From Callorhinchus milii (lineage: Eukaryota): a DNA stretch of 64,000 nt. The DNA lies in the NCBI RefSeq assembly GCF_018977255.1, contig NW_024704765.1:4154001-4218000 (forward strand), read 5' to 3'. Below, piece by piece: positions 9,110-64,000 of this stretch; the first letter of the stretch is position 1; the number at the start of each line of letters is the position of its first letter. The position numbers and the translations under genes were made by a program. A model generated the notes under the pieces. The model did not search any database. It had not been told where the DNA came from and saw only the letters and a program-made list of their open reading frames with translations.

Positions 9110-11107
9110 CTAGGGAAAGGCGGCGCGGGCGAGGGAGCAAAGTCCGGTGGCCTCAGTCCCGCCACTCGGCGCTGCCTTGCTGCTCTCCGCGGCACAGCTG
9201 TCCAGCTCGAGTGCGGCAGCGAAGGCTCCGTCTGCAATAGGGTCGTCGGCGACGAAGAACCTGTGGAAGCGGTGCAGGTAGGACGGCTGCTCGGGCAGCA
9301 GGTAGTAGTGTGTGTTGCTGACTCGCCGTCCCGCCTCGATGATGGGGAGGATACAGGGCACGTGGGGGACCACCGGGTGCCCATCGCTGTTCTGTCGCTG
9401 CAGCACTTTCCTGCTGACGTACTTGGGGTCGGGGGCGAAGCTGCGAGTGGGGGGCATGACCCCATTCAGGTAGGCAGGAAGGGTCTTGGGGCTGGGGGTC
9501 CGGGAGTTGGCACTTGGCACTGGCTCCCGCGGCGGAACCTTGGGGGGCCGCTCCTCCTCACTGTAGGAGCCGGTCACCTCGGCCGACCAACGCCGGTGGT
9601 CCGATTTGACCAGCCGCGGGGGGATTGGTACACGGGGAGGCACCTCCGGCTTCCCCTCGCCCCTGCCTGGCGAACAGCGTCGCCCGGACACATTCACCGG
9701 CACCGGCTTGTGGAAGGCTCCAGCCGGACCCGAATGCGATCGCTGTAGCCGCCGGTTCCGTCTCTGCCGCTCGCCCCCGGCTCTGTGCTCCGTCTCGCCC
9801 TGCTCCGGAATAGGGGGGCTGTACTGCCCCCGGACCCCCACACCACACTCAGAGTAGGCGTGGTTGGTTTTGCCGGCGCCTCGGAGGCTCCTCTGGCCGG
9901 CAGATACGGGTCGGAACTCCAACAGGTTCTGGGTCTCGGAGCTGGTGATTGATTCCACCTCACTGTCCACCTCGTCAGAGGACTCGTAGCCGGGCCAGGG
10001 TAGGGGGGGCAGTGGCCGGGAGCCCCGCTCGACCGGGGTGAGGGGGGGAGACAGGGGGCAGCCAGTCAGGGACAGCGCGCGGAGCGGGGGCAAGACCGGT
10101 GTTGAGCCCAAGATCGGTGATGAAGGCATTATCAGCCGCGACGGCGGCTTTATCACTGACGTTCTCAGGCAGCAACTCTCGCTTAGGTCCCAGTCCTCAG
10201 CTTCCTGTCCTGGGAAGAGAATTACAGAAACCAGAATCAGAAGCTGAATCTCACGCTCACACTTGCCCACGTCGCACACTTGCCCACGTCGCACACTTGC
10301 CCACGTCGCCGACGCACCTGCATACTCGCCCTAGCACAGCACGCACGCACGCACACACACACAAACACACATACCCGCACACTGGTCCAAGCACATACAC
10401 GCTTGCGTTTAGTTGCCCCGCGCACCCTCGTGCTCGCACACTACTCACCGTGCTGTGCCAGAGGTGCGATGTACGGCTGATGATGGGGCTCGGCTCCCAG
10501 GCCACACGTCACTGAGGAACTGTCTCCAAAATATATGCTGCAAATCAGAGGCCAAATGGTCAGCGCCACATCGGCAAAGTTCTAACACCCACCCAGAGTC
10601 GCTCCGCCTTGCCCCCTCCCTTCCCACCATTAAAGATGATCTAAAGACCTTTACTTTGGGCCACAGTCTCTTCTCTGGAGCCAAATTGCTGACAATGGGA
10701 GACCAGAAATGTTGTCCCCGGGGGTGCAAAGCGGTGCCCTCGTCGCGGGGAAGAGGAGCTGTGCCAGGAGGTGGGGGGGGGGGGGGCGGGGGTGAAATTG
10801 GAGAGTTACTCCCCCTTCAGCCACTACGCCCCGAAACTCTGGAACTCTCCCTCTTAATCCTTCCCCCACCTTCAAATCCTGCTCAATTCATTTTGATCGT
10901 GTTCACGGTCACCTCCCCCATCTAGTTGTCAGACTCCGCCACTGTGAGGCGCTCTGGGACTCTACCCCGCGTGAGGGGCGCTATTTGAATACAAGTTGTT
11001 ACTCACGTTTCCATGGGGCTGGGGGGATTCCAGTACGGCTTGCTGCCGATGACCTCGTGTATGAAGCAGTTACTGAGCGGGAAATGGATCTCCTGCGCTG
11101 TCGACAT
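9110..11107 (-). CDS. ERRFI1: ERBB receptor feedback inhibitor 1 (MIG6), ~429 aa, 3 coding exons
   Basis: Exons 11107-11007 ([15 protein letters not shown]), 10537-10449 (acceptor less certain; 10519 is also in phase) and 10209-9110. Motifs [47 protein letters not shown], and the EGFR-binding region [58 protein letters not shown]. Adjacent to SLC45A1 as in other vertebrates. Confidence 0.93.
10258..10310. repeat. 17-bp tandem repeat (cacacttgcccacgtcg) x3 in ERRFI1 intron
   Basis: Direct inspection. It explains the spurious N-terminal extension of ORF 9110..10294. Confidence 0.85.
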
Positions 11108-32392: not shown

Positions 32393-35300
32393 ATGGCTTC
32401 CCCCAAGCCCAGCACGCCAAGCGATGGCATGTTCCCCACCCCGGTCTCCCAGGAGCCCTGGGGACCCCCGGCCTGCGTCTTCCCCCTAGCCACCACGCGG
32501 CACCTCAGCCACCGGGCCAACAACTACAAGCGACATCCCAAGAGGAGGAAATTCATCCGCCCCTCGCCCCCGCCCCCTCCCAACACCCCCATCCCCCTCG
32601 ACCTCGCCCACTTCCCGGAACCCCCGCCGCGACGCTCCTTCCGGGAGCTGCTCTTCAATGGCTGCATCCTATTCGGGGTGGAGTTCAGCTATGCCATGGA
32701 GACCGCCTACGTCACCCCCGTCCTCCTGCAGATGGGACTCCCCGACCAGCTCTATAGCCTGGTATGGTTCATCAGCCCCATCCTGGGTAAGTGCCGCAAC
32801 ACCCCTCCAGACCTCAGCACATTAGCCCCCCTCCCCCACCCCACACACCCCAATCTCAGCACATTACATCAACCCCCACCCTGCCTTGCCCGCGTGTCAC
32901 CCACATACACATGCTGACATGCCCAGACACACGCTGACTAACACGCACCCCTCCTCGTGACCCCCTGGAGCAGTCACTGAGCTCTGAAGCCAATGGAGCC
33001 TCGCCGTGTGCTGTCCTCTCACACGTGCAACGCTGCGTTACTGTCCTTGTGCTGCCTGCGGTGAGGCACCAATGCATGCTGTGATTGCAGGTTTCTTGCT
33101 GCAGCCCATCCTGGGAGCCTGGAGCGACAGCTGCACCTCGCGCTTCGGCCGTCGCCGACCCTTCATCCTGGTGCTGGGCATCGGTGAGTGAGCGTCAGGC
33201 AGCACCGCGGCTCTGTGTGCGTTTGTGTGTGTGTGTGGGGGGGCAATGAGTGTGTCTATATGGGGGAGTGGCTATGTGTGTAGGGGGGGGCTGTGTTTGT
33301 GTGTGTGGTGGGGGGGGGGCACATAGCTGGGGAGTTAGGAACTCTGAGATCAGTCTCTCTCACACTCTCTCTCTCGCTCCTCTCGGCAGGAGCGCTGATG
33401 GGCTTGTCGCTGGTGCTGAATGGCCGGGATGCGGGGGTGGCTATAGGAGACACGGTGAGCGATCACCGCTGGGGGATGATCCTGACGGTGTGCGGTGTGG
33501 TGCTCATGGACTTCAGCGCAGACTCTGCCGACAACCCCAGCCACGCCTATATGATGGACGTGTGCTGTGCCGAGGACCAGGACAGGGGGCTCAACATCCA
33601 CGCACTCCTCGCAGGTCAGTGTCCGGCCCGGGAACACCAACTGTTCAGAATGTTCAGTCCTGTAGCTCAACAACAACAACAATTTGGATTTATATAGTGC
33701 CCTCCACGCCGGACAGCGTCTCAGAGCGCTTTAGAGTAACGGATCCCGGGCCCGAGCCAGAGGGGGGGAAAGGTGACCGAAGGCGCGGTCGAAAAGAAAG
33801 CTCAGTGGTTAGAGCACTCGCCTCGCAAGCGAGAGGACCTGGGTTCGATTCCCGGGCAAGACGAAACGTTGGGCAAGTTTCCTTACACCACATGCCTCTA
33901 GTTTCCATACTCCACGAGCAGTAAGTAGGAACCCGGTTGTTAGTCGATTGGCAGATCGCTTTTCTTGAAGTAATAATCACTTCAAAAGGAAATAATAATA
34001 ATAATTTGTTCACTCAATCCATAACTGTTTGTGGGACACTGCTGGACACTGCTGTAGGCAATTGGCTGCCGGGTTTCGCCCACAAAATATTCAGTCACTG
34101 CACTTTGTAGCACATGCTGTGAAGCGCTTTGACTGTGAGCTCAGAGTTCTGTCGTGGGGCTCAAACCCACAACTTTCTGAACCGGAGGAAAGAACACAAA
34201 CTAGCTTGTAACTATTGGGACCTATAAGCACACGCATGTGCTCTGAAGGGGGCAGGCGTGTGCGCCGTGTGCAGAGCTGCCGGGCGTGTGACGGAGCATA
34301 TGGTGTGTGTGTGTGTGTTTCAGGTCTGGGCGGTGGCTTTGGCTATGTTGTCGGGGGAATAAACTGGGAGCGGACGAGTTTCGGGCGGAACCTCGGGGGG
34401 CAGCTGCGGGTGGTCTACCTGTTCACTTCGGTGACGCTGGTGGTAGCGACACTCCTGACCCTCACCAGCATCCCCGAGACCCCGCTGCCCCCCGACACTG
34501 GGACCAAGAGGGTGATGAAGAGCCCCAGCCTGGCGTTGCCCCCCTCCCCGCCCACTGGACCCGGCCCGGAAGAAGGAGACCCCGCTACCGACCAGACCCC
34601 CGGCCTCTACACGGGCATGAGCAGCCCCATCTCCCCGCTCAGCCCGCTCACACCCAAGTACGGCAGCCTGCTGAGCCGAGACAACTCGCTGTCGGGCATC
34701 AACGAGTTCGCCTCCTCCTACGGCAGCTCCTACATTGACACGGTGCTGATCGGCTGCTCCACCGGCCGCAATGACGATAGCTGCGTCATCATGAGCTCCA
34801 GCCTGCCCCGCCTGCCCGACTCAGCACAGCACCACGAGGAAGAGGCCAGCGCAGAGCCTGGCAGCCCGGGCGTGGGATCTTTGGACGCCTCCAAACGCAG
34901 AGCCTCGGGAATCCTGAAGCGGCCACAGACCCTCAGCATCCCCAACACTTGCTCCGTCACCGTCACCCACCCTGACCCCGGGCGTAGGAGAACAGTGACT
35001 TTCAGCCAACAGGTAAACCTGTATCGTTAAACTCTAGCCCTGACCCGGGAGTGTGGGTGGTCAGTGTATACGGAGCTTTATTGTGTCTTTAACTCTGACC
35101 TAGGAGTAACTCTGGACGGACAGTGTAGAGTGAGCTTTACTCCGTCACTGTATGAGAGTGGATTTGCTGAATGTGCTCTCTGTGCAGGTAGCAAACATTT
35201 TACTGAACGGGGCAAAATACGAAACGGATCTGAACGAATCGGGGGAATTCTGCGAGCGGCCGTTCTCCACCTCCTTTCTCTGCTCCGCCATCTGCCACAT

Positions 35301-37909
35301 GCCCAAAGCCCTGAGGAAACTGTGCCTCAACCACTTCCTAGGTACCCTGCTGCCCCCTTACTCTGCATGCTTAGAGCCCAGCTGGTGAGTAGTGACTGAC
35401 GTACAAACACAACACCGGGTGAGAGAGGTGGGGGCGGGGGTGGGGGTGGCCTGGCCGGGGGGGGGGGGCTGATAATTGGGTGCTGGACACTCAGCACACT
35501 CAGGATGCCTACAAAACACAGTGAAGCGCTTTGAGACGTCCTCCCATGTTTTATCCGCTGTGATGATTACTGCCCACAAAACATGCAGTCGATCCACTTT
35601 ACAGTAAATTCTGTGAAGCTCATTGAGGCGCTGAATGAGGTGATGAGACACTACATCAGATGCACTGTATCAATCAATCAATTATTATTATTAGAGGGTA
35701 TGTTGAGTCACACCCTTCCTGTCTGATGATGATGCAGGAGACCAGTCACGCTTGTAGTTCCTAAATGCTCCCACCAGCTGGCTCCCCAAGCAGGAAAACA
35801 TTCCTTGTGCAGAAAGGCTGTAAAGAGAAGGGTGAAGTGACTTGTCTCAGCTGATGGTCAGACACAGTTCACACTCTGCCTCTCCCTATCTCACTGCTTT
35901 CTCATTGTGGGGCCTGTGCTTAACCATCTGCCAATTACCGCAGAGAATTGTTGAGTGACAGTGGGATCACGTGGCCTCCAGCCACACGCCGCGGCCATTA
36001 ATAATAATAATAATCCTCGCATTTTTTTACTGCGCCTTATCATGTCTTTGAGATATCTCAAAGCGCTTCACAGGATACACTGTAAAGTGAATTGACTGTG
36101 TATCTTTGTGAGTGAAACGCGTCAGCCAATTGCGCACAGCAATGCCCCACAACCAGTTGTAGATTGAGTGACCAAATTATTATTATTTTATTGAAGGGAT
36201 TATTTACCCGCAGAAAAGCGATCCACTAATCTACTAACAAGCGGGTTCCTACTTCCTGCTAGGTAAATAGAGGCGTGTGGAATAAGGAAACTTGTCCAAT
36301 GTTTCGCCCTGCCTGGGAATCAAAACCAGGTTCTCTCACTTGTGAAGTGAGCGCGCTAACCACTGAGCTACAGGATTCCACAGCGAAGTCCTGATGGTAC
36401 CTGGTCAGGCTCCATCTCCAAGCTTAGGGCCACATCTCTGCCTCTCCTTTACGCAATATACTCACTGACCTCTACTCTCTCCCCAGGGTGGCTGTCCTTT
36501 GAGGGAATGCTGCTGTTTTACACTGACTTTATGGGGGAGGTGGTGTACGGAGGTGATGCTAAGGCTCCCCACGACTCTGAAGCTTTCCACAAGTACAACA
36601 CAGGGGTCAGCATGGGCTGCTGGGGGATGTGCATCTACGCTTTCAGTGCTGCCTTTTACTCAGGTACCATTGCTAACCCAACCTGATGCTCCTGCCATCT
36701 TGCACTGCCACCCAGACAACCATCACTAGCTCTGCAAACCATTGCCACCACAATCCTTCCAACCATTGCAAACCCAACCTTGCTGACCATCCCCAACTCT
36801 GGCAACTACCACCAACCCAACTGTAACCTTCGCCAACCCAACTTTTGCTATTGACAACCCTCCCAATAATCACAAACCCAATCCTAACTATTGACAACAC
36901 CCATCCTGCCAACCATTGCCACCCCCGCCTTCCTGCACTGCCTGACCCAACATTCTGAGTTCTCATCTTTCTGCTCTTTTTACCACAGCGATCCTGGAAA
37001 AGTTAGAGGAGCATTTCAGTATCCGAACTCTCTACTTCTTTGGGTATTTGTCCTTCGGCATCGGAACGGGCATCGCCACTCTCTGCCGCAATGTCTATGT
37101 CCTGCTATCTCTGTGTGTGACCTATGGGGTGCTGTTCTCCTCACTCTGCACTCTGCCTTATTCTCTGCTCTGTGATTACTACCAGAGCAAGCAGGTACGT
37201 ATTGGCACCGGGTCTCAGCGGAACCACTTTGGTTACTCTCCAACCTTTCCTCTCCTAGTCACCCGATGCTCGTCCTCACCACCCTCGGTGGGGGAAGGTG
37301 TCACAGCAAATATAAGGCCCCAACTCAGGGGGTTTGCTGTGTGTGGGGGAAAGGTGTCAAAGCAAGTGTAAGGCCCCAATTCAGGGGGTTTGCTGTGTGT
37401 TGGGGGTGCGGTGGTGGGATGGGCCCTCAGAACACCAGGTGCGTGACTGCCAGATGAAGACAGGATTGTGGCTGTGACGTACATATGAGGAATGGTGGTT
37501 TGTTGGGGAAGGTGACTGTGGAACAATCTCCAGAGCAAGTCAGTGCATAGAAAGGTAATAAGGCAGTTTGTGGTGCTGTCGCCCGTGGGTTCATACTGAC
37601 GTGTTGGATGTTCCTCCGCTAACCCAGCATGTCTTTGTGGTGCAGTTTGCAGGGTCGAGTGCAGATGGGACTAAGCGAGGGATGGGTGTGGACCTGTCGT
37701 TGTTGAGCTGCCAGTACTTCCTGGCACAGATCATCGTCTCCGTAGTGATGGGACCTCTGACCTCGGCCGTGGGCAGTGCCAGTGCGGTCATGTACTTTGC
37801 CAGCCTGACCTCTTTCGTTGGCTGCTTCTATTCCTCGCTCTTTGTGATCTACGAGATCCCCCCGGAGGACACAGGGGAGGAGGATCAGCCCCTTCTCATG
37901 AACGTCTGA
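32393..37909 (+). CDS. SLC45A1: Proton-associated sugar transporter A (solute carrier 45 member 1), 8 coding exons, 733 aa
   Basis: Exons 32393-32786, 33091-33183, 33390-33614, 34324-35012, 35188-35341, 36487-36663, 36989-37194, 37646-37909; 2202 nt, phases consistent, GT-AG. Diagnostic [127 protein letters not shown]. Confidence 0.96.
33799..34130 (+). mobile_element. tRNA-derived SINE adjoining an L2 3' fragment in SLC45A1 intron
   Basis: agctcagtggttagagc..gggttcgattccc (A and B boxes) followed by the family body; preceded by an antisense L2 tail at 33668-33795. Confidence 0.8.
36000..36380 (-). mobile_element. Full-length tRNA-derived SINE in SLC45A1 intron
   Basis: Head (gtagctcagtggttagcgcg), body and (ATT)n tail match the family consensus seen across the window. 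Confidence 0.85.
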
Positions 37910-39665: not shown

Positions 39666-42141
39666 CTGAAGGTCAACCCTCCTGACGATGCAGTGCCTCC
39701 CGCCGGCACTGCACGGGAGTGTCAGCCTGGACTGAGGAGTGTCTTTCAGGCTGACGGCGGTGCACAGGATTGAAGAGGAACACAGTGAGCGAGTGTCATA
39801 CCTCCAGTTACCACAAGATGTTCCACTTGGGATTGCTGAAGGCAATCGCCGCATTCATGCACGTTCCCCAGACAAGTTTCCTCGAAGGGTGATGTCAGGC
39901 AGCTCCGGAACAAGACTGCGCAGACATCAATGTTAGCGAGAAAGCAACTGATCAAAGCCTCACTACAAAAAGCCGCCGCCATACGGTCTGAGATAGCAGG
40001 AGCTCTGCAGCTGAATCAAAGCCTTTTGATGAAGAGCTGGTATCGAACGGGGAAGTAACAGAGGCTAATAAAATCGCAGCTCAAACGTGTGGACGCACTG
40101 GCAGCTAGACACAGGAGTCAGGCTGGAGACCAGACTGGGTGGGTGGGGGGGGGGCAAGAGGTTGGAATGGTGGTTCTTTACTGAGTTGCTGATCTCAGTT
40201 GAGTTGGGTTAGGTAAAACCAGCCTGGGCTCCCCAATGGTGATCACAACCAAAGTTGAACATGCAATGGTGCCATTGGTCATTCAATTCCTGGCTGTTTG
40301 TGACGTTGCTGTGTGCAAATTGGTTACCACATTCATCCACAAAATACACTAAACTGTGCTGCGTATTGAGGCGTTCTCTTAACCGGAAAGGTGTGTCAGA
40401 TGTCAGGATAATTTTATTATTATATCAAATGTAGCAGAGAGAGCGCCACCTTGAGCTGCCTTGGAATGCCATCAGACCGATGTGTGTTGACTCACATACG
40501 TTTATAAATAACACAAGCTTTCCGTTGAAAGCTTTTCCCAAAATACTTTGTGAAATACACAACACAATGAGGCCTAAGTATAGAAAATAAAGCTGGACTC
40601 CGGCTATTTATAGCCCTGGTGCTCCCAGTGGGCTCAGCCAGTTTCCAACAGCAACTCCTCTTAAAGGTACATCCACCTCACTGAGGAAGCGCGGCTCACG
40701 GCTGTCCTTACACCGCGGTGCACGACCAATCTCCCCACTCAGTGTTGAGTGTTCATATCCTGGATTGGACATAACTAGGGATCTTCATGGGGGTCGTATC
40801 TCAAGAGCACTTATTCAATTGCAGAATCAAGTGACAAGTCCACACTAAGGACAGGACACTGATGAACAGCAATCAATCTCACACCACTCAATTCTACCCC
40901 ACAAGCCAAGTGAACGGAGCTTGCCTGGTTCCAGAGCACGGCAGAGTATCACTCCACACTAAAGCCCACTGGTGGGAGATCTCACCAAAGAGCATTAGGG
41001 CGACTTGTGGAGACTTGGCCAAAGGCTCACCTCAGGGGTTAAGATCATCCTCCGCCCTGAGCCCAGCTATCATTGTGAGCCAGGAGTTTACGGCTTCTTT
41101 CCTAATTTTGTACAAATTGTTGGGAAGAGCGAAGAATCCAGGTGCTCATTTGTTGGTTTATAAAATTCTGCAGTGCTGGTGCTTTTTGTAACCTTTTGCA
41201 TGGGCATGTGCGCACACAGGTTTTGCACAAGTTAACCAAAGATTTTTCACGCTTTCTCCACCAAATGACCCAAACTGACCAGCAAACAGCTGTGGCCAGC
41301 AGTGGAATAATTTGAAACCAGTTTTGTAAAAAACCCAAAGATTTATTTATAGTACTCAACCAGAATATACAAAGTAGTGGTCAAGCATGAACTAATGAGG
41401 TATACAAATTTAACTTGTTCAATATGGGAAATGCTTTCTTTCATTAAATCACGTCCTTGAAACCACATACAGGTTGAAAAAAAAATGACAGCAGACGTTA
41501 CAATGAGTTTCAAAAGGAAATTTACAAATTGAACCGGTCAATTTTTGCTGGAAGGATTTTTTTTTGCACCACGAACAATAAACAGTAACAAATTGTGGAA
41601 CCCAAACTTTGTGATTCTTTTTTGTAAGTTTTTTTGTTATTTTTTTTGTACAGAATAGAGACAGACCAGGCGCTCTGTGGACCTGGTAACCGGACCTATA
41701 TCTTTGGCCTCCACATTGCATATGAAACTCTACCCTAAACACCATTTACAAAAAGAAAAAAAAGGGCAGCTATTTCTCCTCTTAAAAGTGAGGACGTAGT
41801 CAGCCAGTCTTAGAGAGTGTGCTTCTGAAATGTACAACCCTGCCCTCCCTCCACACCCCGAGTTTCAAATCCTTCTCAAAACAGTCTCAAAAAACATTTA
41901 GTGCAGCAATTAAGCCCATTAAACATATGGTTGTACAAAGAGCATTAATAAATAACTCCATAGAAAAACAAATATTCTCCTAGAACATCTGGGCAGGTGT
42001 TTCAAGAGCCAGTTGTACAGTACATATAAAAAACCCATGCACTCTGCAAGCGTACATACAAAAGCACATCCTCTAGACCCCAAAACTGACCACATCACCA
42101 GTTATAAAAACAGAAATGAGGGAATGTATTTTTAAGCTTTT

Positions 42142-43389
42142 TCAATCTGTCTTCTCTCCGTTTGTCTTTTGCTTCTTAGTCTCACCTTCCTCCTAAAACA
42201 AACAGAACAAAAAAAAACTCATTACAGGAAGCAAGGTCACGGTCAGAGAACAGAGCGAACACACGACTTGTTAGCCACATGGTGGCAGACAGCCAAGAAT
42301 CCCGCTCGGCAATCAGCAAGCTCTTGGGTTGCTTATTAGAGGGAGAAGCCTGGCCTAAAGGATTTTCGCACACGTCAGACCATCCTTGACCCCTGACCAC
42401 ACCTACGATTGGCTCTGAATCCAGTTTAGAACACACTCGGGGATTAAGGTCAATTCTATGGTGCAATACCACATTTCGGCCACTGGATGTCCTCAGCGCG
42501 ATATGAACAAGGGCGCCCCCCAGGGGCAGAACATGGCAGAGCACAATCTCAATGGACTCAACAGGTCCTCGTCTTCGTACCATCCCCTGTAAGTTTGCTC
42601 GTAACAGCTTTTGTTAAGTGCCATGAGTCCATCTCCCTGACCAAGAGGTCGTTGTAGCCTCAGGGAGAAAATGACCATTAGCAAAGGTGGTTTCCCCGAC
42701 CACGGGACCCACTTTTGCTGTACCTCAACGTTGCTGAGTAGCAACAACTACTACACTCAAGTAGGACTGTGAAACACTTACCACTTCCTCAGCTGTACGC
42801 TTGGCTGTCTTGCTATCAGTTTTATCTCCTTCGCCCTCCTCGGCACCGTCTTCATCCTCTCCTTCACCGTCCTCCTCATCACCTTCACCTTCACCCTCGG
42901 CTGCAAATAAAGCCACCGGTAAAAGCTCAAGAAAGCCCAGTAACATCGCAAGCCCAACAACTCGCACCACGTGATGGGGGGGGGGGGTCACGCAAACATC
43001 CCCCCCGTCCGGAAAACAGACAACCGAGCACTAAAGTCAAGCCGACCGTCCTCGGGTTCGGAAAGGTCGCCTGGTTTCCGCGTGTAAACCAGCGAGAGGG
43101 TCGCGGTTTCCGGTGAGCCCGTAGAAGGCGGGCGGGGGAGGGGGGGGAGGAGTTGGGTTGGGCTGTGAGCCCCCCCCCCACCCCCGCAGCCAACACAGTG
43201 ACCCCAATGAACCAGCAGCGGTGCGGAACTTCCAAACAGCCAAGTTCAACCGCAGTCCAATCCATTCCGCAAACAAACCACTGCGGTGATGGGGGGGACA
43301 CGAACATCCCGGTCTTCGGCCGTGAAATCAACACTTCAGCTCGTTACACCATCTTCATCATCATCCTCCTCCTCCTCCTCACACTGCGC

Positions 43390-43435
<46 letters not shown>

Positions 43436-44800
43436 CCCGCGGCCACTCTCTCTCCACTCACCTTCCTCTTCCTCCTCCACCTGCTCGGCGGCGGCTGCTT
43501 CTTTGTGCTCAGCGCCGTTCTTCTTCTCCTCCTCCTCCTCCTGCAAAGCAGCGCCGCGGCCGCGGCCCCGTTACACACAGCGCAGCGAAGCGGCCACCGG
43601 ACCAACCCCGGGACGGCCGGAACCCGCGGGGACCCAGAGAGGGGGGCGCCCACCCCGGGGGGGCGAGCGGGAAGCGGCGCCGCGGGTGTGGGGTGAGGGT
43701 GTGAGAGTGGNNNNNNNNNNNNNNNNNNNNNNNNNNNNNNNNNNNNNNNNNNNNNNNNNNNNNNNNNNNNNNNNNNNNNNNNNNNNNNNNNNNNNNNNNN
43801 NNNNNNNNNNNNNNNNNNNNNNNNNNNNNNNNNNNNNNNNNNNNNNNNNNNNNNNNNNNNNNNNNNNNNNNNNNNNNNNNNNNNNNNNNNNNNNNNNNNN
43901 NNNNNNNNNNNNNNNNNNNNNNNNNNNNNNNNNNNNGGTGTGTGAGTGTGTGAGGGGGTGTGTGAGGGGGGGGGGGTGAGGGGGTGTGTGAGGGGTGTGA
44001 GGGTGTGTGTGTGGGGGGGTGTGAGGGGGTGTGTGGGGGTGTGTGTGGGGGTGTGTGAGGGGGGACTCACGGTGCCGTTAGTGGGAGCGTCCCCACTGCC
44101 GTTCTCCTGCTTCTCCGCTTCCTCCACCTTCTCCGCCGCCTTTTCCTTCTTCTCCTTCAGCTCCTACACACACACCGGGGATCAGCGATGCCGCCGAACA
44201 CCGGCTCCCCCCCCCCCCCCGCCATCCCCCCCTCCGCCGCCCGCTCCCCCCCCCCCCCCGCCCCGCTCCCCCCCCCCGCCCCGCGTGCCTGTATCTCCCG
44301 CCAGTTCTGCGTGAGGTGAAAAGCGTGGCGGGTGGACTCGGGGCTGCACTCTCCCGGGGGAGTCCGCAGCCCCTCCCCCTCCCCCCCACCCCCCCGCCGC
44401 CCCCTCCCGGAAATATTTTTTTATCGACGTCGTTCTAGTTATTGTTATTCAAAAAAAATTGGAATTTTTAAAAAAAAAATATCCCCCCAATAAGTTTTAA
44501 AATTAAATCTCGCGGCGCGAGACACCGCGGGGGCCGAGGGCTGAGGGGCGCGGAGACCCTCGGACCCTTTTTTGTGGGGGGGGGCGATGGTGGGGGCTCC
44601 GAGCGGCCTCTCCAGTCCGTCTCCGGGAGCCGATCGGGAGCCGCTCTCCTCTCTCACACACACACACACACAAAGAGACAACAAAGGAAACACGCGGGAC
44701 TCCGGGGCTCCGCTCCCCCCCTCCCCTCCCTCCCCCCCGCGAGCAGCTCTCTCACCTGCGGGCTGACCTCGATGGCGGGACCCGCTGCGGTATCGGCCAT
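42142..44800 (-). CDS. Prothymosin-alpha/parathymosin family acidic nuclear protein, 5 exons, 128 aa
   Basis: Exons 44800-44756 (MADTAAGPAIEVSPQ, 45 nt), 44163-44071 (ELKEKKEK..EEAEKQENGSGDAPTNGT), 43540-43462 (EEEEEKKNGAEHK..EEEEE), 42900-42782 (AEGEGEGDEEDG..TAKRTAEEV), 42192-42142 (EEGETKKQKTNGEKTD*). Phases 0,0,1,0. Shows LKEKKE, a DAPxNG motif, a central acidic tract and a KR..TKKQKT bipartite NLS, with no aromatic residues. AATAAA (minus) at 41347-41342. Confidence 0.88.
43711..43936. other. Assembly gap (N run) in intron 2 of the prothymosin-family gene
   Basis: Run of N. Confidence 1.
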
Positions 44801-44819
44801 CGCTGGGCTGCACGGTCGG

Positions 44820-45730
44820 GCGGGTTGAACGGCTGACGACGAGGCGCGGAGCTTCCGACTGTAATCACGGGAGGCAGAGCCGGGTCGGGACGCGCGGGAG
44901 TGGACGGCTGACTGGACGCTGCTGCTACTCCTCAAGTTACTCCCGGTTCCACTTCCACGCTGTGCCGCCGTGAGGAGCAATGAGCCGCCGCTTGGCCGCG
45001 CGGGCCTTTAACACCTCCATCGGGCCCCGCCCACGCACCCGGACGCCGCACCCATTGGTCAGAACCGCCAGCCAGTCACCCCCATGACCCGCCTTCCGGC
45101 GTGCCCATTGGCTGTATTCAAACGGCAGCCGCCGCCATTGGTCCGCTCGGGCCGGCCCCGCCCCGCCACCGCCGAGCCCGGTGGGCGGTCATTCACGAAC
45201 GAGTGGCCGTCACTCACCTCGAGCTGTCGAGCGCGATTGGCTGAAGCTCCGGATCCGCCCCACCCCCCCCCGCCGCTGCCCACCGGACCAATGGACGGGG
45301 CTTGGGTTCCGATTGGCCGAGCGGACGATCCATCGCCAGGCTGAGCGCCTGCTGATTGGTCCGGGTGTCCGCCCGTCACCGCCGCGCTGCCTCCCGATTG
45401 GCGCAGCCCAGCTGGGGGCCCCGCCCCGACTGACAGGTGGCCCCGCCCCCCCCTCTCTGGTCTGATTGGCGCCTTTTTAAAGGCTCGTCTTTTTTTTTGC
45501 TAATGGTGAATGCTCCTAATTGCGCGCTTTGTGCCGCTCTCGCTGGTGCTTTGCATTATGATTGGCATGTGCGCGGGGGCTCCCCCCCCCCGAAGTATTT
45601 CCAACCCATGAGATCCATTTCCAACACGCTCTCCCCTCCCGGTACAGCCATTGACCCCCTCCCACTGCCTTACTTTTATTTACCCCCACAAACTGCTGAG
45701 CTCCGCCAATCAATAAACCAATAACTAAAC
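44820..45730 (-). promoter_or_regulatory. CpG-island promoter of the prothymosin-family gene with ~12 CCAAT boxes
   Basis: CpG-dense. ATTGG/CCAAT at 45054, 45107, 45137, 45236, 45288, 45312, 45355, 45397, 45465, 45561, 45706, 45718; GC boxes (e.g. 45025-45032); ETS-like CTTCCGG at 45093; TATA-like GTTAAAG at ~45012-45006 on the minus strand. Confidence 0.8.
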
Positions 45731-47884
45731 CGAACCGAACACTGGGCAAACACTCGCCCGTCCCCCCCCCGGTTCCCCCCCCCTCCCCCCCCCACAGGCA
45801 CGGAACCGGGTGGATCGAAGCCTTTGTAACCGGGCGGCGCCGCACACCCCCCGCGTTATGTCCCCGCGAACCGCCCCCTCCGGTTTTTGTTCTAATTCGG
45901 AAACCCATTCGGGGTTTTCGAGGAGTGCGGAGGAACGCGGAGGAAGTTATCGATCCGCTCCGTGAGGTCTCGGGATAAACGGGACCGGACCGTGTAGTGC
46001 AGTGGGTCCGCACTGAGACACCACAGCTCTCCCTCTCCCCCTCTCCCCCCCACCACCACCCACCGACCACTCAAAACGCATCGAATTTTTTTTTGTGCGC
46101 CCGTCCTGGGGTTTGTATTTGCTTTTTACGTTCGAGCGCAAAAAAAAAACTTTTTAAACTGTAGGAGGTTTAAAAGCCTCATTGCCTTCTCCCGCTGTTT
46201 AACTTAAAAGAGAGCCACCGGGGCTTTACCGGGAGGGGAAGTGGCAGGTCCCGGGCAGGTAGGTTACCGGGGACTCCCCCCACCCCCCCCGTGACACCGT
46301 CTCCTCCAATTCGCCTCATCATCATCATCATTATTATTATTAATATTATTATTATTGCATCGCGACAATGGAAACATCTGCAGAATGCAGTGCATTTTAT
46401 CCCCAACGTGTCTTAACCTGAAGCGTGTGGCGGGAAAGCCGTGAGCGGATTAAAAAGGGGAAATAAGACGGAAAGACCCCCCCCCCCCCCCCCCCCTCCC
46501 CTCCCCCCCCCCCCTCCCCCCCCCTCCCCCCCCCTCCCCTCCCCCCTCCGATGACTTACTGTTTTGACGACTGTGTATATAATGAGAACTAACGCAGGAA
46601 CTTCTGGACTTCAATCCCGCAATTTCGTCTCACTTTTTTTTCCCCCTTTTCTTAAAAAAAAGTTGCTGTTGTTTACACTGTTGTAAATAAATAGTTAGTT
46701 TGGCAGTGCCCTGTGGGGGTGTGTGGGGGGGGGGTCTGGTTACCTGTGTGGGGGGGGGGGAGGGGGTGCACCTGGCACTGGGCTGAAGACATCTTTTTCT
46801 CTCTCTGGGTCTCTCTCTCTCTCTCTTCTCTCTCTCTCTTTCTCTCTCTCATTGACCGCCTTTGGCCGTCTGCCATCCAATGAGCCCCATGTGGAGAAGT
46901 TCCTTTTGTTTAAGTTGTGGAAAATGGTTTCAACGGTGAACAAATCGAAACTGCGAAACACGTTTTGCCTTTTCTTTTGAGCATCGAAACTTGGGATATT
47001 CCGCTGGTTCGCTTCTCCAGTCGGTGTGAGTGTGTGTGTGTGTGTGTGAGTGACAGTGTGTGTGTGTGAGGGTGTGTGTGTGTGTGTGTTGGGGGTCTGG
47101 TTCCCTCTCAAACTTGTGGCTTATTCGCAAGTTTGGGGTTTTTTTTTGCTCAAAAACACACATTTCTCTTTTTCAACAGGAAACGGCTTAATGTTTCTTT
47201 GGTGGCGAATGGATGGCGATAGCGCGCGCTCTCTCTCCGTCTCTCTAACTTCCCAAATGCTTCCAAACGCGCCGGCGCGTGACTCTGACCTGTTAATAAC
47301 GCGTACAGTCTCCAAAGGCAGACGCAGAGTGACCATTATAGTGTTTTTTTTAACAGAAGAGAGTTGGAGACATTACTTTTGTCCACATGTTTGTATTGAT
47401 CCGGCGCCTTGGGACGTTCTCCTGACATGAATTTGTTATTGTTGATAAGAAACGTCTCGAACCTCCAGACGTAATTAATTTCGAGTGTAATAACTGTTTT
47501 GCCCATGAGGTTCCCCCCCCACACACACACACACACACACACAGGCCCGGGGATTGTTGGCCAGGCCACTGGGAGAGCCTGTCCTCTCTCTGGCTCACAT
47601 GGTAAGTGCGCCATGTGCTGTGGTCCTGAGCTGACCAGAGGATGGAAGGTATCAGTGTCAATGGCTGGTGCCCGGTGAGTGCGTGGGTGGGGAGACGTGT
47701 CCATGAGGGGAAAACATCCGCCAAGACTCGCTTGATTTCTGTGAGCGAAAGGCACAGTGTAAAGTGGACTTTGATGGAGGTGCCAAAGGCCGCTGGACCG
47801 GTCAGCAGAAATGGGTCGCTGCCCCCTTTGCCGGGATTTAACTTGGAAACACTTTTCAGAGAGGTTTAGGGTTGGAATGATGGT

Positions 47885-59275: not shown

Positions 59276-61063
59276 GTTACCTATCCCCAGGTGAGAGGCT
59301 AACTATTGAGGTAGCTGAAGTCCCTGCGCTCACACAGAAATTGATTCGGTTGAATTCTGCAGCTGTGCTGTGATGTTTACTTTCACAGTTGGCGCTGCAC
59401 ACAGCAGCTCTGGGACTTGTTTACCTCAGAGCCTTTTGTCCGTGTTGCCCTACTTGTGCACTGATAAACTATTTCCTGTCTTAATCATTTGTTTTCAGTT
59501 AATGTCCTTTGTTTGAAGAGCTGACATTTCTCAAACTAAGGTACTAAAGATAGGCATGTGATAAGATCAGCTCCTTGGTGTTCAAAGTTGTCTGAACTGC
59601 CCTGGACATCTGACTTTCTCTCTTTTACACTTTCTTTTTCACACTCTCACACACTCGCTCTCGATCTAAATGAAATTAGCGGCGTTTTGTAACACTTTGC
59701 TTGTGATAATCATGGAAAGGAATGGTTTATATCACATTGATTTCTCATGGCCTTTCCCGGCATGTTTCTACAGCTCTCATAAAAGTCCCCGGGTTTACAC
59801 AGGGCTTGGATCCGGTGTGGTTGGTGAATTGGGTGTCTAACCTGGTGATGTCTAGTGCAGGTGATGTGGATGGCGGACTATCGGCTTGTGGCCAGGACCA
59901 GCCTCCAGTGTTGATATGCATCGCTGACGACAACATCTTTCAGGGTGAGCCTGGCAGCCCAGTGGTGGAAGGGAGGGGGCTCCGGGCATTCCCAGGGCTG
60001 CACTCCTTGTGACACATCACCTGCCTGGTTATTGGAGGGGGGGTGGGTGGTGTTGCCCTGTCCGTCCCCCCCGCACCGGCCTTGCTTGTGCCCTGGTCTT
60101 GTCCCCCAGCACTCCGGTTGCTCTTCAATGTCTAGACCGAGGCCTGTGTAAGCACTGCTCACTAACGCCGCTTGTGTCACTGTGATGGCAGATTGGATGG
60201 AAGAAGCTGCACGGGAGAGGTTTGCTGATGCCATGATCATTACCACCCCTGACCGGCTGCACAAGGTACAGTGAGGCGGGGAGGTGGGCAGGGCAAGCTG
60301 GGGTGGGGGCAAGCTGGGTGAGGGGGTGGGGTAAGTGAGATGGGAATGCATGTTCTGTGCGTGCCATGTGTTTGTTGATGTTGTTGTGGTTGTTGTTGTG
60401 TTTGTTATTGATGTTGTTGATGCTGTTGTTGTTCCTGTACATGCTGAATGGCGGCAGTCTGGGAGCTCAGCGATCACTGTGTTTGCTGTTGTACAGGAGT
60501 TGGCCGTGGCGTTTGCTGGGAAAGGTTACCACGTCCTGCTGGAGAAGCCAATGGCGGTGAGTCAGCCACTGAACGTCAGGCACTCAGTGGCGCATGTCTG
60601 CCTGTCATCACTTTGGGGTGGTGGTGGGGGGTGGTGAGAGGGGTGGGGGAGCGGAAAGAGATGGGCGAGGTGGGGGGTGGAGCTGGGGGTAGGGGACACG
60701 GAGGGAGGAGCAGAGAGCAGGAGGCTGAGCGCAGTGTGTTCGAGTGGCAGAGAACGGCCCTCAGTCTATGACATCAACGTTGGGCTGAACTCTACCTATA
60801 AATGGGGATTTGTTCACTCCCCGAACTGCACTCAACCCCTCAGCGTCTGTTTGGACTCGGTACAAATCTGTATTTGTGTATTTTAGCTTCACTCAATTCA
60901 GTTTGTTTGGACCAAGTCCACAATCCATGCCAGAGAGTGACCGGCTTCAGCTGTAGTGTGCAGATTGATTGGATCTTGGATATACAACCCACCTCATGTA
61001 TGTGTGTGTGTGTGTGTGTGCCCTGTGTATGTGTGTGTGTAAACTGAGTGGGTATGCGAGTAA

Positions 61064-61343
61064 ATAATAATAATAATCCTTGCATTTGAAATAGCGCTTT
61101 TCAAGTCTTTTAGATGTCTCAAAGCGCTTCACAGAATATGCTGTAAAGTGAATTGACTGTATATTTGTGGGCGAACGCGGCAGCCAATTGTGCACAGCAA
61201 TGTCTCACAAACAGTCATGGCAATTTATTATTGTTTTTTGTTTTGGAGGGATTATTATTAGGCTCTGTGTGGATAAGCCTGGAACTGAACCCAGGTGTCT
61301 TGCTTGCAAGGCAAATGCTCTAACCACTGAGCTACAGGGCTCC
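61064..61343 (-). mobile_element. tRNA-derived SINE (internally deleted)
   Basis: Head and tail of the family on the minus strand. Further partial copies at approximately 1615-1790, 2345-2460, 8545-8640, 12297-12400, 14190-14300, 14850-15085, 19086-19333, 20014-20210, 23150-23262, 28843-29040, 32012-32255, 55945-56070, 56345-56610, 57525-57787 and 62070-62200. Confidence 0.8.
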
Positions 61344-64000
61344 ACAGTGTGCATGTGTGCAATTACGTGCGCGTGTGCACAAGTGGCTGCTGCGTGCGCT
61401 CTGCGTGATGAGTGTGTATGCAAGTGCGCGTATGCGTGTGCATGTGTATGCACTCTGCTTTTTCAGTGTGGTGAACATGATGTTAAGGTCAATCTGAAGC
61501 CGTGCCTGTTACTGTGAGTGTCTGACAGGTTTGGTTTGTGTGTGTGCATGTGTGTGTGTGTTGACAGGTGACGGTGGAGGATTGCCAGCAGATTGTCTGT
61601 GTGTCGGGCGAGCGGAGTGCTATTAGCCATATGCCACGTGCTCAGGTACTCGCCTGCCTTCCTGAAAATACAGGTGAGTGCAGGAGCCATGTGATCAAGG
61701 TCAGTAACTCACATGCCTCAGCACATCCCAATCGTGGACAGATTTAGTGGTTGTGTAATTGACTGTGGTAGCCATCTTACGAGCATATAGGATCAGGAGT
61801 AGGCCATTCAGCCCCTCAAGCCTGTTCCGCTATTCTATAAGATCATGGCTGATCTGGACCTCAAATCCAATGACCTGTCCTTACCCCACACCTTAATACC
61901 CTTTACCTAATAAATATCAATCCACCTCAGTCTTCAAAATATTGCATTTTTCGAATAGCAAACAATCAGAATGTGAATGATCAGTTTTACGTGGAGGATT
62001 GTTGGCCAGGACACTGGGGAGTGAGAGAGAAACAACCTTCTCTTCTTATTGTGATTCCACATTTATAATAATAATCATAATAATCGTTGCATTTCATACA
62101 GCGTCTTATCATGTCTTCCAAATGTCTCAAATCACTGCACAGAATATACTGTAAAGTGAGTTGACTGTGGATTTTGTGGGTGAAATCCGGCAGCCAATTA
62201 TAATGATAACATCTTGAACAGGCACAACAAGACCTGGGTTGAATGTATAGATACAAGGAGGAAAGAGCAATAGGAATAGGATTAGCATAAGAGAGCTGTA
62301 GTGGGATTGAGCTCTGACACCTTGACAATAGGCCGAATGATGTCCTCCAGCGATTTCTCTGGGTGGAGTGTGTGCCCCTCCCTGAGCTGTATTAGCGCAG
62401 AGTGTGTGGTGCTGTCGAGCTAGAAGCAAATTCTCACCCTTGACTGTCCAGTGCCTGGGGACGCCCTCCCGATGGGAACTGTCTCCCTCATACCCTCTGC
62501 CTTGCCCCCTTCCCTCCCCACTTTCAAATCCTACCTAAAGAGCTTTCTTGATCGTTCTTACAGTCACCTCGCCGCCTCCCTCTCCCCCTGGCTCGGGGTC
62601 AGACTGCGACACTGCAAAGCGCTTCGGGACCCTACCCTGCGTGAAGGGCGCTATATAAAATGCTGTTGTTGTTGTTGTTGAAAAAATGGCACTGTGTAAA
62701 TGCAATTTGTTGTTGTTGTTCTGGGAAGGTTGACAGATGCCGATCGTGTAACCTGGGGCAGCTGCTCAATCCCTATTGCAGGGTGTTTCTATCTTGAATC
62801 TGTTACACACCACTGAGTGATACAGTAAATACCAGATTAACGTATTTCCCTTCAAACCAGTTTCACTGCATTATGAAGCAGTGCTGAGCTGAGCTGAGCT
62901 AACCTCACCTCCGTGAACTTCAGTCATTTTTAGATTGTAATTTAAGAAGTGAAACTGTTTGTATTGAGAGCTTTGTGATAAATCCCCTCCAGTTAAATGC
63001 CGTGGCACCGAGCCATTGGGTAGAGAGACTGTAACATGTCTGCAAGTGCGGAACCCAAATTATGATCACAGTAATACAGTGTGAATCAGCACCTGGAACC
63101 TCGAGGCTGTCTTTTGAGGTGGTGGGGGTTGGGGAGGGCTGACTCTCTGGGCGCGGGAGGGGGGGCTGTCTCTCTGGGGGGGTCTCTCTGGGGGGGCTGT
63201 CTCGGTGGGGGGTGGCAGTGGAGTGGGGGAAGAGTTGCATTGCTGAAGGTGTTGTCCTTCTGGTGAGACATTAAGCTGAACCATGTCAACCTATTAAAGA
63301 TCCCACAACACTATTGGGTTTGAGTTGTCGCCTGAGGACAGGCTGCTGTCAGCATTTTGGGACATCTTCCTGTCACGAAAGGTGCTATACAAATGTAATT
63401 TGTTGTTGTTGTTGCTGGCCTCAGCATGTGCGAGACGCCGCTGGCACACACCGCTCACTGCCTTTCCCCACCAAGCAATCACCTCATTCACATCACTGTT
63501 AAGGAATCTCTGGAAAGCTCTTACATATGTGTGTTTCATGGAGAAGAAATGTGAGGTGTGCGTGTGTGTGTCTGTTTGTGTACCCGGGGCCTTGGTGGCT
63601 CAAAATTACTTGTAACCCTCCTGCAGCACGGCTACCTGAGCATTCAGTCGTAACAGCTGCAGACTCAAGTCGGAGGTGAGCCGGGGGCTGGGTGTGAGGC
63701 AGAGACCCTGAGGCCTGTCTCCCTCCCACCCCCAGCCTTCTTGCCCCGCATTGTCCTATGGAACTCATGTAGAATTCCACCCGTTCTCAAAAGAGGCAAT
63801 TTGGGATTTACTCAGTCAGAAAGTTGCTTCAAATAACAAAAGGGACACTGTTTCTTCAAGGCTAATGGTTTGATGTAAAGGCTGCAGTAAATGTGATTGC
63901 TTCCAGCTGTTTGAAGCTTTCCCATGGAGCGGAGGGTAAGAGCCAGGCAGGAAGTGTTTGTTTGACTGAACTGACTGACTGATAGCTCAGAAATCCAACA

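What the first reader, a model, noticed from the sequence alone, without database searches (positions are those of the whole stretch)
42142..44800. Possible third prothymosin/parathymosin ohnolog in the ERRFI1-SLC45A1 (human 1p36-equivalent) block
Seen: an intact 5-exon, 128-aa acidic protein with its own CpG-island promoter, so it is not a retrocopy. It mixes PTMA-like features (EEAE..ENG..DAPTNG, TKKQKT) with PTMS-like ones (LKEKKEK, EEEEKKNGAE, C-terminal KTNG). Known: mammals have two family members, PTMA (2q37) and PTMS (12p13). These regions are paralogous to 1p36 through the vertebrate whole-genome duplications (e.g. RERE/ATN1, ENO1/ENO2, PER3/PER2), and human has no such gene beside SLC45A1. 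Inference: this may be a retained third ohnolog that mammals lost. The ORF track misses it because the exons are small and low-complexity.
Basis: partly seen in the sequence, partly recalled or inferred. Interest (0 to 1): 0.7.

Follow-up and report, generated by a model that had tools for sequence, protein, structure and literature searches.

The report
Third prothymosin-family gene lost in amniotes
This cartilaginous-fish genome holds a real, spliced gene for a small acidic prothymosin-family protein that is separate from its prothymosin alpha gene and lies beside SLC45A1, as a family gene does in zebrafish; it is likely a third family member left by the early vertebrate genome doublings, likely lost in reptiles, birds and mammals, and predicted to work as a nuclear histone chaperone.

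Summary
In detail: five exons, GT-AG introns, 128 aa, 37.5% Asp+Glu, CpG island, spliced and polyadenylated contigs in public runs. A separate PTMA gene lies 81 kb from PDE6D on another contig. The window gene belongs instead with fish, lungfish, ray and frog proteins that databases call 'prothymosin alpha-like' or 'parathymosin': tree split 98/100 (AU test not decisive), shared motifs, and a 3' UTR that aligns with four transcripts of that group while the PTMA UTR does not. Zebrafish has a family gene, si:ch211-222l21.1, 3.5 kb from slc45a1, besides ptmaa and ptmab. [quoted passage not shown] So the gene lineage is known; its chimaera member and its reading as a third ohnolog were not found in print. 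The PTMS test is open: the assembly lacks the 12p13-type block (even TPI1) and no PTMS sequence was obtained. Likely role: disordered nuclear H1 chaperone without PTMA's Keap1-type motif.

The parts
44756..44911 (-). exon 1 (coding 44756-44800, 15 codons; 5' UTR to at least 44911)
44071..44163 (-). exon 2 (LKEKKE and ENGSGDAP.NG motifs)
   Evidence: best genome hit of the relative P0027
43462..43540 (-). exon 3 (NGAEH where PTMA has ENGE)
42782..42900 (-). exon 4 (acidic tract and KR half of the predicted nuclear signal)
41322..42192 (-). exon 5 (coding 42142-42192 with TKKQKT; 820-nt 3' UTR)
42166..42802 (-). predicted bipartite nuclear localisation signal, KR-10 residues-KKQK, split by intron 4
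   Evidence: PTMA signal described in PMC9102069
41361..41380 (-). 20-nt 3' UTR block, 19 of 20 identical to a fish transcript of the same group (L090)
41342..41347 (-). AATAAA polyadenylation signal, about 20 nt before the poly(A) site
44001..46500 (.). CpG island with 10 CCAAT/ATTGG boxes between 45054 and 45565; promoter inferred
43350..43383 (-). 34-nt acidic stretch between AG and GT in intron 3; not seen in transcripts
32393..37800 (+). SLC45-family gene (SLC45A1 by position), tail to tail with the gene; end approximate
9110..10330 (-). ERRFI1 large exon (Mig-6 domain)

Best explanation
It is an intact, spliced gene of a prothymosin/parathymosin-family lineage distinct from PTMA and shared with rays, bony fishes, lungfish and frogs, likely a third ohnolog from the early vertebrate genome doublings that amniotes likely lost, and its product is predicted to be a disordered nuclear polyanion that chaperones linker histone H1. 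Shown: gene structure, splicing, a separate PTMA locus, membership of the 'PTMA-like' group by UTR, motifs and profile score, and the SLC45A1 neighbour in zebrafish. Inferred: (1) origin by genome doubling, probably as the closer twin of PTMS; (2) import through the KR-10-KKQK signal; (3) binding of the basic tail of H1 by the acidic middle, which would loosen H1 on nucleosomes as PTMA does; (4) no Keap1 binding and no caspase-3 removal of the nuclear signal, since the ENGE and D-x-x-D motifs of amniote PTMA are absent.
For: Separate PTMA-type gene on C11, 81 kb from PDE6D, same five exons and phases, keeps ENGE; zebrafish ptmaa is 48 kb from pde6d. Tree of 25 rows: C11 gene + amniote PTMA against window + 18 anamniote proteins, 98/100, 99/99 without the acidic tract. 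Profile scores of the window protein: 65.6 bits to the anamniote group, 35.3 to amniote PTMA, shuffles below 0. 3' UTR against four transcripts of the group: reached by 3, 0, 0 and 1 of 300 shuffles; the C11 UTR against the same four: 96, 203, 137 and 84 of 300. Zebrafish si:ch211-222l21.1 starts 3.5 kb from slc45a1, with errfi1 135 kb further. Frog 'prothymosin alpha like' (P0045) has syntenic orthologues in zebrafish and coelacanth, and none in 6 reptiles, 4 birds, 3 non-placental mammals or placentals. Of 139 proteins held, 54 carry the group's signature; one is a rodent PTMA caught by the pattern, and no other bears an amniote name. Paralogous neighbours: ape PTMS lies among COPS7A, MLF2, CD4, TPI1 and ENO2; zebrafish mlf2 is beside atn1 and rereb beside eno1b; C24 carries an enolase, PAX7 and DVL. 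Net charge -31, no aromatic residue or Cys, hydropathy 0.30 against a boundary of 0.50; Atlas model of a ray member has pLDDT 0.22. PTMA as H1 chaperone with TKKQKT signal and caspase cut at D99: PMC9102069 passages.
Against: AU tests do not reject placing the window protein with PTMA (p 0.34 and 0.15); both chimaera rows are long branches; the PTMA side holds no bony-fish or frog PTMA; the C11 protein scores equally on both profiles (53.9 and 54.3). No PTMS is in the tree, and no species was shown here to hold both this gene and PTMS: the zebrafish table of clustered genes has no 'ptms'. The published screen also left the chimaera, tilapia, medaka and fugu columns blank, so its blanks for reptiles may be misses. 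Only the best 120 of 436 hits were listed. The atrophin gene is on an unplaced contig and the enolase is 3.2 Mb away. The zebrafish gene's sequence was not seen. Eight members of the group have an ENGE near the C-terminus, and the C11 PTMA also lacks the D-x-x-D site. No binding or localisation was tested.
Confidence: 0.72

Rival explanations
1. It is the anamniote orthologue of PTMS, and the gene moved to the 12p13 block in early amniotes.
For: Distributions seen here are complementary: the group has no amniote member and no anamniote PTMS at its own locus was seen. Some databases name members 'parathymosin'.
Against: PTMS sits beside COPS7A, MLF2 and near ENO2, the twin neighbourhood of human PTMA-COPS7B (recalled), which looks like an inherited site and not a landing site. 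The group keeps the PTMA-type NG-DAPANG segment, which mammalian PTMS lacks (recalled). The Atlas holds separate 'prothymosin alpha-like' and 'parathymosin' clusters (taxa not resolved). Absence of PTMS in this assembly says nothing, since TPI1 is missing too.
Confidence: 0.13
2. It is an old single-gene duplicate of PTMA or PTMS that landed beside SLC45A1 before jawed vertebrates split, not a product of genome doubling.
For: The immediate neighbours (SLC45A1, a GFO/IDH/MocA oxidoreductase) are not shown to have twins beside PTMA or PTMS; the tree cannot date the split.
Against: All introns are kept, and the host chromosome is the twin of the PTMA and PTMS chromosomes (enolase, PAX7, DVL on C24; ENO2 near PTMS).
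Confidence: 0.11
3. It is a lineage-specific or misassembled copy of PTMA.
For: AU test does not reject grouping with PTMA.
Against: Only 57 of 131 aligned columns match the genome's own PTMA; UTR and motifs side with the anamniote group; the same neighbour is seen in zebrafish.
Confidence: 0.04

Closest known systems
Xenopus tropicalis 'prothymosin alpha like' (NP_001039169.1, symbol ptmap12), X. laevis LOC100127279, zebrafish si:ch211-222l21.1
   Same: Same group by tree and motifs for the frog proteins; the zebrafish gene has the same neighbour, slc45a1. The X. laevis protein carries the three peptides encoded by the primers for the 'prothymosin homolog' of PMC6871517.
   Different: The window protein has a shorter C-terminal tail and extra residues in exons 2-3. 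The chimaera column is blank in the published orthologue table.
Prothymosin alpha (PTMA), including this genome's gene at G000:C11:20229058-20233831
   Same: Five exons with phases 0,0,1,0; LKE, NG-D-P-NG, acidic tract, KR..KKQKT; no aromatic residues.
   Different: Other locus; NGAEH in place of ENGE; net charge -31 against -40 to -43 in amniote PTMA; no D-x-x-D before the nuclear signal; UTR likeness to the C11 gene is weak (7 of 300 shuffles, gapped score; 79 of 300, local score).
Parathymosin (PTMS)
   Same: Pfam family; EENGA-like start of exon 3 and KT-ENG ending (PTMS features recalled, not tested).
   Different: PTMS lies in the COPS7A-MLF2-CD4-ENO2 block; this gene lies beside SLC45A1 and keeps the PTMA-type exon 2 segment.

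Membership tests
Prothymosin/parathymosin family (PF03247) | Pfam profile above cut-off | tested here: inconclusive
   Only single exons of the window were scanned: exon 4 scores 7.8 bits, cut-off 23.9. Group members pass: 6 of 7 tested, 45-86 bits; L099 scores 21. A profile built from the group scores the spliced protein 65.6 bits, shuffles below 0.
Prothymosin/parathymosin family (PF03247) | Small, very acidic, no aromatic residues, predicted disordered | tested here: met
   128 aa, 48 D/E, net -31, no F/W/Y/C, far on the disordered side of the charge-hydropathy line.
Prothymosin/parathymosin family (PF03247) | C-terminal bipartite nuclear signal KR...KKQK | tested here: met
   KR, 10 residues, KKQK; function not assayed.
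Prothymosin/parathymosin family (PF03247) | Five coding exons in the PTMA arrangement | tested here: met
   Same count and phases as the C11 PTMA.
PTMA orthologue | Locus beside PDE6D | tested here: not met
   PDE6D is on C11 with another family gene 81 kb away.
PTMA orthologue | ENGE motif in exon 3 (Keap1 contact, role recalled) | tested here: not met
   Window has NGAEH; the C11 gene and the 5 amniote PTMA in the tree set have ENGE.
PTMS orthologue | Locus among COPS7A, MLF2, LAG3/CD4, TPI1, ENO2 | tested here: not met
   Neighbours are ERRFI1, SLC45A1, taste receptors, DVL, PAX7; the 12p13-type block itself is not found in the assembly.
PTMS orthologue | Groups with PTMS in a tree | not tested
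Anamniote PTMA-like group (frog ptmap12, zebrafish si:ch211-222l21.1) | MAD start, NG(S/T/K)xDAP, NGxxH, conserved 3' UTR blocks | tested here: met
Anamniote PTMA-like group (frog ptmap12, zebrafish si:ch211-222l21.1) | Adjacent to SLC45A1 | tested here: met
   About 3.5 kb in the window and 3.5 kb in zebrafish; not checked in frog.
Ohnolog of the vertebrate genome doublings | Twin neighbourhoods plus a single pre-doubling gene in the outgroup block | tested here: inconclusive
   Twin neighbours seen; no jawless or invertebrate chordate genome available.
Linker-histone chaperone (PTMA-like function) | Binds H1 and raises its exchange on chromatin | not testable with these tools
   Inferred from composition and from PTMA.

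The most novel reading that the evidence does not exclude
The prothymosin family had three ohnologs in the first jawed vertebrates. This third one is the twin of PTMS, persists from chimaeras to frogs under wrong names, lacks PTMA's Keap1 and caspase switches, acts as a constitutive H1 chaperone, and was lost once at the base of amniotes, so fish and frog work on 'prothymosin alpha' mixes two different genes.
Probability: 0.55. Interest if true: 0.5.

Novelty: new member of a known kind. Interest (0 to 1): 0.42.

Why it matters
The family is usually treated as two genes. A third lineage reaching back to cartilaginous fishes gives an identity to genes that databases call prothymosin alpha, parathymosin or, in frog, a symbol (ptmap12) that human papers also use. 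Fish single-cell papers read si:ch211-222l21.1 as prothymosin alpha and may borrow PTMA functions that its motifs do not support. It could mask ptma knockouts in zebrafish and frog, and it offers a natural variant with lower charge and no ENGE motif for testing how PTMA's H1 chaperoning and Keap1 binding separate. The gain is moderate: the lineage and its loss are already in published tables.

Tried and rejected
Pfam PF03247 search of the genome gave one false hit, the reverse strand of a potassium-channel gene. Exon 2 alone found nothing in the protein collection, the PDB or the 50% representatives; too short to mean anything. Exon-2 pattern: 14 hits, none a family gene. PTMS-type C-terminal pattern: 0 hits. 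Exon-5 pattern: 13 hits, 2 were the known genes, 2 more were read and rejected, 9 were dismissed from the matched letters alone. The second hit of P0027 in the genome (C1013) is a GA repeat. 260 kb around the single COPS7 hit holds no family gene by motif scan. The 11-nt UTR word shared with the C11 gene is not above chance (256 of 1000 shuffles). The run search listed no holder on record as RNA; the spliced joints come from contigs, which cannot rank expression. Splicing of the C11 gene was not checked in reads. Shark CD4/LAG-3 paper PMC10768021: no mention of PTMS in text or 10 supplements; its gene-order figure could not be seen. No 'ptms' row in the zebrafish tables or the frog tables searched; these tables are partial. 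No structure or complex prediction was run: a disordered polyanion gives no useful model. Papers not held: PMC5313049, PMC6264893, PMC52136, PMC2374262.

Full report
Observation. The minus strand holds five coding exons (44756-44800, 44071-44163, 43462-43540, 42782-42900, 42142-42192) with four GT..AG introns in phases 0,0,1,0, giving 128 aa with 48 D/E and 17 K/R. A CpG island covers 44001-46500, with 10 CCAAT/ATTGG boxes. Contigs of 4 of 15 listed runs (3 studies) show the exon 4-5 joint in 4 of 4, the exon 1-2 joint in 2 of 4, exon 3 by a loose end and by bridging contigs, and a poly(A) end at 41322 in 2 of 4. It is an intact, spliced gene and not a retrocopy. Neighbours are taste-receptor-type genes and DVL on one side, ERRFI1 and an SLC45 gene in the window, and PAX7 further on; an enolase lies 3.2 Mb away on the same contig. 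Earlier notes on this genome call it elephant shark (not checked here).

A separate PTMA exists. PDE6D maps to C11:20.148 Mb, and 81 kb away lies a five-exon, 111-aa family gene with the same phases and the ENGE motif. Zebrafish ptmaa is 48 kb from pde6d. The two chimaera proteins share 57 of 131 columns, far above shuffles.

PTMS cannot be judged in this assembly. One COPS7 locus, one MLF locus, one strong enolase locus, one strong atrophin locus (unplaced contig) and no TPI were found. TPI1 is an essential enzyme of the same block (order in apes; essentiality from own knowledge), so the block is most likely unassembled. Two pattern searches and one protein search found no further family gene.

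Which lineage. A pattern scan of metagenome contigs gave 51 loci, 4 of them spliced transcripts of family proteins that resemble named teleost proteins. The window's 3' UTR aligns collinearly with all four (reached by 3, 0, 0, 1 of 300 dinucleotide shuffles), the C11 UTR with none (96, 203, 137, 84 of 300). Searches from these gave 34 hits and then 436, of which 120 were listed. They fall into amniote PTMA and a group from rays, sharks, teleosts, lungfish and frogs with MAD, NGxxH and a longer tail. In a tree of 25 chosen rows (2 chimaera, 18 of the group, 5 amniote PTMA, out of 139 proteins held) the C11 gene goes with amniote PTMA and the window gene with the group, 98/100, and 99/99 without the acidic tract. 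Against this, AU tests do not reject the window gene with PTMA (p 0.34, 0.15), and the C11 protein scores equally on both profiles, while the window protein prefers the group, 65.6 to 35.3 bits. UTR and synteny carry more weight than the tree.

Synteny and print. In a zebrafish supplement table (PMC5690287; rows only) slc45a1 ends at chr11:40,409,925 and si:ch211-222l21.1 starts at 40,413,471, with errfi1 at 40.57 Mb; ptmaa and ptmab are elsewhere. Two papers call that gene prothymosin alpha (PMC11955638 and bioRxiv 10.1101/2022.11.22.517520; one passage each). PMC6871517 (two sections and part 1 of 2 of one supplement; its PDF supplement was not readable) lists a Xenopus 'prothymosin homolog' among nine genes lost in warm-blooded animals and finds it not induced in tail regeneration; its primers encode peptides found in X. 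laevis LOC100127279, a member of the group. PMC10416458 (passages and rows of Table S1) lists X. tropicalis 'prothymosin alpha like', chr7:96.2 Mb, with syntenic orthologues in zebrafish and coelacanth and none in 6 reptiles, 4 birds, 3 non-placental mammals or placentals; the chimaera and three teleost columns are blank too, so blanks are weak. Ten searches listed no paper that treats the family as three ohnologs; subscription journals, figures and unread supplements may hold this.

Origin. PTMS lies among COPS7A, MLF2, CD4, TPI1 and ENO2 (PMC12077880, two passages). Zebrafish mlf2 is beside atn1 and rereb beside eno1b. Human SLC45A1 is followed by RERE and ENO1, and PTMA is near COPS7B (recalled). 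The simplest reading is one ancestral block with the family gene, COPS7, MLF, atrophin and enolase, whose copies kept PTMA, PTMS and this gene. The pairing of the 1p36 and 12p13 blocks in other families (RERE/ATN1, CHD5/CHD4; recalled) and PTMS-like ends suggest it is PTMS's closer twin. The rival, a moved PTMS, stays open because no species was shown to have both genes.

Mechanism. The protein has net charge -31, no aromatic residue, and hydropathy far below the order boundary; the Atlas model of a ray member has pLDDT 0.22. It carries KR-10-KKQK. PTMA is a nuclear H1 chaperone with the TKKQKT signal and a caspase-3 cut at D99 (PMC9102069, passages) and is fully disordered (PMC5668563, passage). 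I infer nuclear import and charge-driven binding to the H1 tail. The window protein lacks ENGE; Keap1 grips the glutamates of such motifs (PMC6092318, passages; that PTMA uses ENGE is recalled). D-x-x-D directly before KKQK occurs in 0 of 54 proteins with the group's signature and 48 of the 85 others, but is also absent from the C11 PTMA. I give about 0.7 to the H1-chaperone role.

Verdict. Real gene; a chimaera member of a lineage that is known in databases and flagged as lost, very likely distinct from PTMA, probably distinct from PTMS and probably an ohnolog. New member of a known kind, interest 0.42.

Noticed in passing
window 60200-61670 (+) and L003:1833-2243 (+): Exons of a GFO/IDH/MocA-type oxidoreductase run away from the prothymosin-like gene on the other strand (weak Pfam hit E 0.003; motifs; not among the 4 genome hits). 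In frog an uncharacterised gene, LOC100488469, starts 303 bp from ptmap12 head to head, has a Callorhinchus orthologue and is listed as absent from birds and mammals. They may be the same gene sharing the CpG island; identity not shown.
   Followed up: partly
window 43350-43383 (-): Acidic 34-nt stretch with AG and GT ends just past a CA repeat in intron 3; in frame only if it replaces exon 3; not seen in contigs, but the zone was skipped as a repeat.
   Followed up: partly
G000 whole: No TPI1, ENO2, ENO3, ATN1, second COPS7 or second MLF found: the 12p13-type block seems unassembled, which limits any gene-loss claim from this genome.
   Followed up: partly
G000:C287: The only strong atrophin (RERE-type) locus is on an 84-kb unplaced contig, not beside SLC45A1.
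   Followed up: partly
L010:3-437 (-): Exon resembling a sphingosine-1-phosphate phosphatase (name recalled; no Pfam hit) about 55 kb before the PAX7 homeobox exon; could mirror the PAX3-SGPP2 pair.
   Followed up: no
L082, L086, L093, L094, L102, L115, L132: Transcripts for acidic proteins of about 105 aa with KR.AE...KKQKTENG near the N-terminus and an acidic tail, the reverse order of prothymosin; no PF03247 hit in 5 of 5 tested.
   Followed up: partly
window 2485-6669 (+), L012, L013: A cluster of several taste-receptor-type class C GPCR genes between DVL and ERRFI1.
   Followed up: no
G000:C11: PDE6D and PTMA are near the contig end (20.15-20.23 Mb) while the only COPS7 hit is at 2.91 Mb, so the human PTMA-PDE6D-COPS7B run (recalled) is broken here or in the assembly.
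   Followed up: no
L006: The same 89-codon open frame recurs seven times at 1431-base spacing, a tandem repeat about 45 kb beyond the window.
   Followed up: no
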